From contig JASFVU010000001.1 of NCBI GenBank assembly GCA_050049665.1, positions 1 to 29,387 on the forward strand: a stretch of DNA of 29,387 bases, written 5' to 3'. This stretch comes from Bacteroidales bacterium. GTDB taxonomy: Bacteria > Bacteroidota > Bacteroidia > Bacteroidales > UBA10428. Numbering within the stretch: the first letter of the stretch is position 1; every line of letters starts with the position of its first letter. The position numbers and the translations under genes were made by a program. The notes beneath the pieces are model-generated. The model did no database searches. It saw nothing but the letters and a program-made list of their open reading frames with translations, and was not told the DNA's origin. This document shows, in pieces, positions 1-84 of this stretch.

Positions 1-84
1 CCAGGAATTTTAGCGGGTCCCTGAACCCGTCCCGAATACTCGGGATGACAGGCCGGCATTCTAACCAAACTGAACTACCACACC
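1..84 (-). tRNA. tRNA-Asp(GUC)-like gene, intact 5' half (84 to 46), non-canonical 3' part; interrupted or pseudogene, cut by window edge
   Basis: Reverse complement reads GGTGTGG-TA-GTTC-AGTTTGGTTA-GAAT-G-CCGGC-CT-GTC-A (acceptor 5' strand, D-arm, anticodon stem 5' strand, GUC at 49-47). It then continues TCCCGAGTATTCGGGACGGGTTCAGGGACCCGCTAAAATTCCTGG, with no GCCGG anticodon-stem partner and no CCACACC acceptor partner. Confidence 0.65.

What the first reader, a model, noticed from the sequence alone, without database searches (positions are those of the whole stretch)
1..84. tRNA-Asp(GUC) with a perfect 5' half but a foreign 3' half: overwritten tRNA or intron
Seen: the 5' half is canonical up to GUC-A (position 46) and has a TAnnTTTG promoter upstream. 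After that come a 16-nt palindrome (TCCCGA-GTAT-TCGGGA), a T-arm-like hairpin (CGGGTTC-AGGGA-CCCG, against canonical CGGGTTCGAGTCCCG) and no acceptor 3' strand. Inference A: a pseudo-tRNA whose anticodon-stem/variable region was replaced by the palindrome; the T-arm resemblance at about the right distance favours this. Inference B: a group I intron after U33. GGCCU|GU can pair with ACGGGUU with a U33.G wobble at the junction, and ACCCGCU-AAA-AUUCCUGG loosely resembles a P3-J3/4-P4 start. Established: bacterial group I introns occur in tRNA anticodon loops. A contig-end misassembly is also possible.
Basis: partly seen in the sequence, partly recalled or inferred. Interest (0 to 1): 0.7.

Follow-up and report, generated by a model that had tools for sequence, protein, structure and literature searches.

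The report
Hairpin-disabled duplicate of tRNA-Asp gene
The odd half-tRNA is a dead partial copy of the tRNA-Asp gene, with a small DNA hairpin overwriting its middle, and it is the end-piece of a widespread cassette in Bacteroidota that lodges a tiny GIY-YIG nuclease gene beside tRNA genes and that I could not find described; it is not an intron.

Summary
On the minus strand, window 84..46 is a canonical tRNA-Asp(GUC) 5' part. A 6-bp/4-nt hairpin (45..30) replaces tRNA positions 38-49. Eight T-arm bases follow (29..22), then 21 unrelated bases, and the contig ends.

It is not a chance oddity, a chimera or a group I intron. The same replacement, at the same two boundaries, occurs in 26 genome loci across Bacteroidota and 2 metagenome contigs. 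It always lies in a truncated tRNA-Asp copy, and wherever the contig extends far enough an intact tRNA-Asp lies 18-409 nt away. In 17 of these 28 loci an 80-92 aa single-domain GIY-YIG gene lies between or beside the copies.

A second copy of the 35-nt core sits in the same bin, in contig C12. There it carries the tRNA 3' end and follows a GIY-YIG relic and a HEPN/MNT pair.

The nuclease family occurs in 163 of 301 sampled Bacteroidota genomes. In 27 of the 30 best loci it abuts a tRNA gene.

The closest described system is the Ssn family of ssDNA hairpin-guided GIY-YIG nucleases (PMC11893778); that paper does not mention tRNA.

Earlier notes of this scan reported the same cassette on other DNA.

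How the cassette works is inferred, not shown.

The parts
46..84 (-). tRNA-Asp(GUC) 5' part, tRNA positions 1-37 (acceptor 5' strand, D-arm, anticodon-stem 5' strand, loop through A37)
   Evidence: Matches the canonical tRNA-Asp of genus relatives up to window position 46.
30..45 (-). Hairpin TCCCGA-GTAT-TCGGGA that replaces tRNA positions 38-49, directly after GTC-A
   Evidence: The same replacement is seen in 28 other loci.
22..29 (-). CGGGTTCA, tRNA positions 50-57 (T-stem 5' strand and first T-loop bases); homology to tRNA ends here
   Evidence: 5'-side copies end 8-14 nt after CGGGTT.
1..21 (-). Non-tRNA tail running off the contig end; with 22-29 it forms a T-arm-like hairpin CGGGT/ACCCG
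   Evidence: No match elsewhere in the bin or in metagenome contigs.
22..56 (-). 35-nt core repeated at G000:C12:3285-3319 (34/35 identical)
165..172 (-). TATTTTTG, a Bacteroidota -7-type promoter motif; the leader is conserved with the canonical tRNA-Asp locus of genus relative G007
   Evidence: Promoter function is inferred.

Best explanation
Window 1-84 (minus strand) is a '5'-side' pseudo-copy of the tRNA-Asp gene. It holds the native promoter and tRNA positions 1-37, then a hairpin in place of positions 38-49, then positions 50-57, and then it breaks off.

It is one end-piece of a composite unit that recurs across Bacteroidota. In that unit a minimal (80-92 aa) GIY-YIG nuclease gene sits beside an intact tRNA gene. 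One or two hairpin-disabled partial duplicates of that tRNA flank the pair.

In this genome the intact tRNA-Asp most likely lies just beyond the contig end. Contig C12 carries a decayed nuclease gene, a HEPN/MNT pair and the matching '3'-side' pseudo-copy. It is the other end of the same locus or of a second one; I put this at about even odds.

The following is inferred, not shown. The unit enters a tRNA gene by recombination through a tRNA-homologous arm next to the hairpin (insertion-duplication). That leaves one whole tRNA and one truncated copy. The hairpin, set directly after a GTC, is the recognition site of the nuclease on single-stranded DNA, as in the Ssn family. It also stops the spare copy from folding as a tRNA. 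Nicking at the hairpin would then drive recombination, spread and tandem amplification.
For: Shown:
- The same 12-to-16-nt replacement occurs at the same two boundaries in 28 other loci. In each, the flanking tRNA arms follow the local tRNA-Asp sequence.
- Two layouts recur. One is: 5'-side copy, then a GIY-YIG ORF or a 24-75 nt spacer, then the intact tRNA. The other is: intact tRNA with terminator, then GIY-YIG, then a 3'-side copy with a duplicated terminator. Loci L019 and L026 carry both layouts.
- L043, the locus with the same anticodon stem as ours, reads 5'-side copy, GIY-YIG (82 aa), intact tRNA-Asp.
- The nucleases are intact: Pfam PF01541 in 16 of 16, catalytic residues invariant, 47-65% identity to the first sequence of the alignment.
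- C12 holds the 3'-side copy and a GIY-YIG relic at its contig end.
- In the syntenic locus of a genus relative, a canonical tRNA-Asp follows the same leader.
- In loci chosen by protein alone, 27 of 30 have an adjacent tRNA gene. TCCCGA-stem hairpins number 10 in 10.9 kb near the ORFs against 3 in 69 kb elsewhere.
- The hairpin usually follows GTC-N. It does so here and at a second site in tRNA-Asp copies.

From the literature: Ssn nucleases are single-domain GIY-YIG enzymes. They bind a hairpin repeat of the form GTCA-TTCCCG...CGGGAA-TC and cut ssDNA upstream of it. Their genes are flanked by these repeats (PMC11893778).
Against: - No intact nuclease of this family is in the bin, which is 67% complete.
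- The C12 relic match covers only 12 residues.
- The acceptor strands of the two pieces mismatch at one pair (GGTGTGG against CCAGACC), so they may belong to different loci.
- The core misses the published SRM pattern by 3 substitutions. That pattern is not enriched in G000: 4 matches against about 5 in shuffles.
- Assignment to cd10448 could not be tested. The best PDB relatives are UPF0213 proteins and SLX1.
- The short arms usually match the local tRNA. That fits in-situ duplication or gene conversion as well as import.
- No activity, mobility or transcript data exist.
- My first set of loci was selected by the hairpin sequence, so its invariance in that set is circular.
Confidence: 0.75

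Rival explanations
1. A group I (or other) intron interrupts tRNA-Asp in the anticodon loop, and the 3' exon lies beyond the contig end.
For: The break falls in the anticodon loop. The gene inserted in related loci is a GIY-YIG gene, with weak sub-threshold hits to the group I intron endonuclease model TIGR01453. The sequence left of position 1 is not available.
Against: Rfam finds no intron in the window or in 6 related loci. Related loci continue with a spacer or an ORF and then a complete tRNA-Asp, not a 3' exon. The 3'-side copies lack positions 38-49, so no splice could rebuild a tRNA. The insert can be as short as 24 nt.
Confidence: 0.02
2. The 35-nt repeats in C273 and C12 are attL and attR of an integrase-borne genomic island inserted in tRNA-Asp.
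For: Direct repeats of a tRNA segment sit on two contigs. HEPN/MNT and IS3 genes lie next to the C12 copy.
Against: No integrase was seen in C12 or in the first 2.3 kb of the window. In other genomes the repeats bracket only a roughly 250-nt nuclease ORF, or nothing. Both repeats carry a hairpin that the canonical target lacks, which a single crossover with a normal tRNA gene cannot produce. The pattern is not found in viral contigs.
Confidence: 0.04
3. The hairpin is an independent REP-like mini-palindrome that overwrites structured DNA. It landed in an already dead tRNA duplicate and has no functional tie to the GIY-YIG gene.
For: G000 holds 48 CCCGA-N4-TCGGG hairpins against about 1 expected, including 23 copies of one REP-like family, one of them at window 12388. 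Similar hairpins replace D-loops and acceptor strands in some copies. The exact 14-mer also occurs outside any tRNA, in C74.
Against: Identical boundaries in 28 loci from several orders. About 20-fold enrichment of TCCCGA hairpins next to the nuclease ORFs in loci chosen by protein alone. The REP-like copies lack the GTC flank.
Confidence: 0.1
4. The hairpin-bearing piece is a functional RNA, for example a tRNA-like processing or stability signal for the nuclease mRNA, or a decoy, and not a DNA-level site.
For: It sits under the native tRNA promoter. It keeps the acceptor 5' strand and D-arm intact. In layout 1 the nuclease ORF would be co-transcribed with it.
Against: It is truncated in the T-loop and cannot form an acceptor stem. 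In these loci only the two freed loop positions vary and no compensatory stem change is seen, but the stem letters were fixed by my search pattern, so this is weak. Folding energy is not unusual, z -1.2 to -1.7. Rfam's tRNA model does not score it.
Confidence: 0.06
5. It is an assembly chimera at a contig end.
For: It lies 21 nt from a contig end in a fragmented MAG.
Against: The same junction occurs in 28 independent assemblies and in a second contig of the bin.
Confidence: 0.02

Closest known systems
Ssn family of site-specific ssDNA nucleases with their NTS/SRM hairpin repeats (Chenal et al. 2025, PMC11893778)
   Same: Both have a single-domain GIY-YIG protein of about 80-95 aa. In both, the gene is flanked by oriented hairpin repeats. 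The hairpin stem base is TCCCG...CGGGA, preceded by GTC(A) and followed by C, as in the NTS (GTCA-TTCCCG...CGGGAA-TC). The authors themselves liken the repeat-gene-repeat layout to an insertion sequence.
   Different: Here the repeats are embedded in partial duplicates of a tRNA gene next to an intact copy; that paper has no mention of tRNA. The core fails the published SRM pattern at 3 positions. Assignment to cd10448 and ssDNA cleavage are untested. Hairpins of this kind are few per genome here, not hundreds.
Phage T4 SegB, a free-standing GIY-YIG homing endonuclease in the tRNA gene cluster (PMC2330249)
   Same: Both are GIY-YIG nuclease genes lodged among tRNA genes. SegB recognises the conserved T-arm motif of tRNA genes and drives inheritance of itself and its flanks. 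Here the disabled copies are broken in or beside the T-arm.
   Different: SegB is described as recognising a 27-bp site and leaving 2-nt 3' overhangs, and it lives in phages. The proteins here are only the catalytic domain (80-92 aa), are chromosomal, and come with a hairpin and partial tRNA duplications.
REP/REPIN sequences and RAYT transposases; IS200/IS605 (from my own knowledge and from the discussion in PMC11893778)
   Same: All involve short GC-rich hairpins recognised as ssDNA by a small nuclease encoded next to them, with hairpins present at both ends of the gene.
   Different: The enzyme here is a hydrolytic GIY-YIG nuclease, not an HUH/Y1 transposase. No strand-transfer chemistry is known for it. 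The hairpins here sit inside tRNA-derived arms.
tRNA-gene integration by tyrosine-integrase islands
   Same: A tRNA gene is used as the landing site. Partial tRNA duplicates bracket the insert, and one functional tRNA is preserved.
   Different: There is no recombinase. The inserts are 0.03-0.5 kb. The spare copy is overwritten by a hairpin.

Membership tests
Functional tRNA-Asp | Cloverleaf recognised by tRNA finders | tested here: not met
   ARAGORN finds 0 genes in the window. Rfam has no tRNA hit at the gathering score or at E<=10.
Functional tRNA-Asp | Anticodon-stem 3' strand, complete T-arm and acceptor 3' strand | tested here: not met
   Positions 38-49 are replaced. Homology ends at position 57. 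No CCACACC follows before the contig end.
Group I intron in a tRNA anticodon loop | Ribozyme core detectable by the Rfam model | tested here: inconclusive
   There is no hit in the window, but the would-be intron lies off the contig. There is no hit in 6 related loci that do contain the downstream sequence.
Group I intron in a tRNA anticodon loop | A 3' exon that completes the tRNA | tested here: not met
   Related loci continue into a whole tRNA-Asp. The 3'-side copies lack positions 38-49.
Ssn/SRM system | Single-domain GIY-YIG protein of about 90 aa | tested here: met
   16 neighbouring ORFs of 80-92 aa contain PF01541 only. In G000 itself only a 12-residue relic remains.
Ssn/SRM system | Assignment to CDD cd10448 / clade with Neisseria SsnA | not testable with these tools
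   No CDD and no SsnA sequence were available by reference. The nearest PDB sequences are UPF0213 proteins at 1e-14 and SLX1.
Ssn/SRM system | Flanking repeat matches the published SRM search pattern | tested here: not met
   The best match needs 3 substitutions. The pattern is not enriched in G000: 4 matches against about 5 in shuffles.
Ssn/SRM system | Oriented hairpin repeats flank the nuclease gene | tested here: met
   Layouts. The hairpins lie on the same strand as the gene. They are enriched about 20-fold near ORFs chosen by protein alone.
Ssn/SRM system | Cuts ssDNA only, upstream of the hairpin | not testable with these tools
   This needs a biochemical assay.
Free-standing GIY-YIG homing endonuclease (SegB type) | Nuclease domain plus a separate DNA-binding region | tested here: not met
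   The proteins end about 80-92 aa in, with no second domain.
Free-standing GIY-YIG homing endonuclease (SegB type) | Cleaves the allele that lacks the gene and is copied into it | not testable with these tools
   This needs crosses or an assay.
Integrase island att site in a tRNA gene | Recombinase gene inside the repeats | tested here: not met
   C12 and the window start encode HEPN, MNT, IS3 and housekeeping genes only. Inserts elsewhere are too small to hold one.

The most novel reading that the evidence does not exclude
The hairpin plus the minimal GIY-YIG gene form a new class of selfish element. It has no recombinase and no DNA-binding domain. It spreads by nicking its own hairpin on single-stranded DNA, and it uses the universal conservation of tRNA sequences as recombination arms. 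Each landing preserves one working tRNA and leaves a hairpin-disabled duplicate. The window holds one such landing scar at the native tRNA-Asp promoter.
Probability: 0.4. Interest if true: 0.8.

Novelty: new variant of a known kind. Interest (0 to 1): 0.6.

Why it matters
If the reading holds, over half of the sampled Bacteroidota genomes carry a very small mobile or semi-domesticated unit that remodels tRNA loci. This unit breaks short-read assemblies, produces pseudo-tRNAs that confuse annotation, and builds tandem arrays of up to 13 units. It would also extend the newly described Ssn-type ssDNA nucleases to a new genomic niche. There, the recognition hairpin is built onto a GTC that already exists in the tRNA gene. 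That gives a ready set of natural enzyme/site pairs to test. For this window alone the practical message is simpler. The genome is not missing tRNA-Asp for a biological reason: the real gene is most likely in the assembly gap.

Tried and rejected
- Retrieving the sequence left of position 1 failed. The window starts at the contig end. No other contig of the bin overlaps bases 1-30.
- ARAGORN over the whole bin finds 23 tRNA genes and no tRNA-Asp.
- The group I intron reading is rejected.
- The integrase att-site reading is rejected after annotating C12 and seeing the small inserts elsewhere.
- The published SRM pattern does not match exactly.
- Folding as ssDNA gives the hairpin, but the z-scores are unremarkable.
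- Literature searches for GIY-YIG with tRNA-Asp, with tRNA gene/Bacteroidetes/palindrome, and for Ssn with tRNA found no description of the tRNA-lodged layout. This covers only the library searched.
- The protein atlas returned only unnamed Bacteroidota GIY-YIG clusters.
- I did not run the large protein searches or a structure prediction, because they would not settle cd10448 membership.

Full report
**What is there.** On the minus strand the window begins (84..46) with a textbook tRNA-Asp(GUC) 5' part through A37. A hairpin TCCCGA-GTAT-TCGGGA follows at 45..30, then CGGGTTCA at 29..22, then 21 unrelated bases. Position 1 is the physical end of contig C273, in a 522-contig MAG that is 67% complete. 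ARAGORN and Rfam see no tRNA or other RNA family here, and the bin has no tRNA-Asp at all.

Genus relatives carry a normal tRNA-Asp whose match to the window stops at position 46. Alignment shows that 12 nt (C38 to G49) are replaced by the 16-nt hairpin. Homology resumes for positions 50-57 and then ends. In relative G007 the same leader, including the TATTTTTG motif (window 172..165), runs straight into a canonical tRNA-Asp. The window piece therefore sits at the native locus.

**A second copy in the same bin.** The 35-nt core (window 22-56) recurs at C12:3285-3319 with one loop difference. There it has no tRNA 5' part. It continues instead into a genuine tRNA-Asp 3' end (CCAGACCGC) and a terminator.

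Upstream of it lie a HEPN gene and a nucleotidyltransferase (MNT) gene. At the very contig end lies a 12-residue remnant, IPWKLVYVEQCP, that matches the middle of the GIY-YIG profile. An IS3 element lies downstream.

**The wider pattern.** A 27-nt pattern spanning the junction finds 26 loci in genome contigs: Sphingobacteriales, Chitinophagaceae, Rikenellaceae, Prolixibacteraceae, Draconibacterium, Chryseolinea and others. It finds none in viral contigs. A second pattern finds 2 metagenome contigs.

Every hit is one of two kinds:
- 5'-side copies keep the full 5' part, often with the upstream flank, and lose homology 8-14 nt after CGGGTT.
- 3'-side copies begin 9-27 nt before TGTCA and run through the 3' end, often into a duplicated terminator.

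Wherever the contig extends far enough, an intact tRNA-Asp lies 18-409 nt away. In 17 of the 28 loci an ORF of 80-92 aa lies between or beside the copies. Two layouts result:
- 5'-side copy, then ORF or a 24-75 nt spacer, then intact tRNA.
- Intact tRNA, then ORF, then 3'-side copy.

L019 and L026 show both layouts together. That is also what C273 plus C12 would give if they are one locus.

The tRNA-derived arms follow each lineage's own tRNA-Asp, while the replaced segment is the same everywhere. That sameness was partly imposed by my search pattern.

Ten of the 26 loci have the core within 250 nt of a contig end, so these tandem pieces commonly break assemblies.

**The gene.** The 16 ORFs that I aligned are GIY-YIG domains only (PF01541 in 16 of 16). 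The catalytic Tyr, Tyr, Arg, His, Asn and Glu are invariant, and identity to the first sequence of the alignment is 47-65%. The nearest solved structures by sequence are two UPF0213 proteins (1e-14) and SLX1.

A profile search of 301 sampled Bacteroidota genomes finds the family in 163. Genomes often hold several copies or tandem arrays with a 300-380 nt period.

In the 30 best loci, which were chosen by protein alone, 27 have a tRNA gene on the same strand within about 110 nt (Asp, Pro, Ser, Val, Ala, Arg, Cys, Asn, Gly). TCCCGA-stem hairpins are the commonest hairpin near these ORFs: 10 in 10.9 kb against 3 in 69 kb elsewhere.

In those unbiased tRNA-Asp loci the hairpin sits at a second site, GGAGGTCG-hairpin-AGTCCCG, replacing C50-G57. 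So the breakpoints 37|38, 49|50 and 57|58 recur, and at the tRNA-Asp and variable-loop (GGTCG) sites the hairpin directly follows GTC-N; the tRNA-Val and tRNA-Ser copies do not.

**Not an intron, not an island.**
- No group I model scores in the window or in six related loci, while the intact tRNAs there score 68-70 bits.
- The downstream partner is a whole tRNA, and the 3'-side copies lack positions 38-49, so splicing could not rebuild a tRNA.
- No integrase is present, and the inserts can be as small as 24 nt.
- A single crossover with a normal tRNA gene cannot put the hairpin in both repeats.

**Closest known.** The Ssn family (PMC11893778) comprises single-domain GIY-YIG proteins of about 94 aa. 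They bind an oriented hairpin repeat (NTS: CGTCA-TTCCCGCG...GCGGGAA-TC) and cut only ssDNA, upstream of the repeat. Their genes are often flanked by the repeat on both sides.

The core here (TGTCA-TCCCGAG..CTCGGGA-C) shares three things with the NTS: the GTCA flank, the TCCCG/CGGGA stem base and the C after the stem. It still misses the published degenerate pattern by three substitutions, and that pattern is not enriched in G000. cd10448 membership could not be tested. That paper never mentions tRNA.

T4 SegB (PMC2330249) is the other parallel. It is a GIY-YIG homing enzyme in a tRNA cluster that recognises the T-arm motif. According to the abstract of that paper it recognises a 27-bp site and leaves 2-nt 3' overhangs.

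I found no paper describing the tRNA-lodged layout. Earlier notes of this scan report the same cassette at tRNA-Asp, Asn, Met, Leu and Ser genes in other genomes. One of them pointed me to the Ssn paper.

**How it probably works (inferred).** A unit made of short tRNA arm, hairpin, short tRNA arm and nuclease gene recombines with a resident tRNA gene through one arm.
- A crossover in the 5' arm yields: 5'-side copy, nuclease, intact tRNA.
- A crossover in the 3' arm yields: intact tRNA, nuclease, 3'-side copy.

This insertion-duplication accounts for both layouts, for the preserved tRNA and for the tandem arrays.

The hairpin placed after a pre-existing GTC would be the nuclease's ssDNA site. 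The sense strand of a heavily transcribed tRNA gene, or DNA entering by transformation or conjugation, could supply the single strand. Nicks there would stimulate the recombination.

I give the descriptive part about 0.85-0.9 and this mechanism about 0.4. That the short arms usually match the local tRNA fits in-situ duplication or gene conversion equally well.

**Verdict.** The feature is real, is the 5'-side end-piece of a GIY-YIG/tRNA-Asp cassette, and sits at a contig break caused by the repeat. The wider phenomenon is interesting and apparently undescribed beyond the Ssn paper. This particular copy is a truncated relic in a genome where the nuclease gene itself appears decayed.

Noticed in passing
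window 12388-12401 and 22 other places in G000: A REP-like hairpin family, CCCGAG(GT|AC)CTCGGG, with extended consensus ..TCCttcGCCCCGAGGTCTCGGGGc.., has 23 copies in the bin. In all there are 48 CCCGA-N4-TCGGG hairpins in 3.09 Mb against about 1 expected. They share the stem core with the tRNA hairpin but lack the GTC flank.
   Followed up: partly
G000:C74:10205-10218: The exact 14-mer CCCGAGTACTCGGG occurs outside any tRNA, flanked by CCTGT on one side and AGTAAT on the other. I did not establish whether it lies in a gene.
   Followed up: no
G000:C255:2680-2970 (minus); L007:1105-1407 (minus): A second kind of stand-alone GIY-YIG protein (98 aa, PF01541 6e-14) lies about 100 nt from a REP-like hairpin. 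Genus relative G007 has the same kind directly after its canonical tRNA-Asp.
   Followed up: no
L021, L031, L042 (D-loop); L032 (D/anticodon arm); L027, L028 (acceptor 3' strand): Further hairpins of the same family (TCCCGAGGTTTCGGGA, CCCCGAGAACTCGGGG and others) overwrite other parts of tRNA-Asp pseudo-copies, sometimes two per copy.
   Followed up: partly
G113:C2:365030-368832; G081:C19:516155-517910; G282:C1:3904002-3906642: Tandem arrays of 13, 5 and 8 nuclease units have periods of about 299, 382 and 343 nt.
   Followed up: no
L015 (G000:C12) 3352-4022 (minus): A HEPN/MNT pair is inserted between the decayed GIY-YIG gene and the 3'-side tRNA-Asp copy. An IS3 element (orfA 2798-3082, orfB 1974-2801) follows the terminator.
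   Followed up: partly
window 234-764 (minus), 755-1606 (minus): An RsmD-like methyltransferase (PF03602) and a DUF3822 protein are the first genes beyond the tRNA promoter. They look like ordinary chromosome genes.
   Followed up: partly
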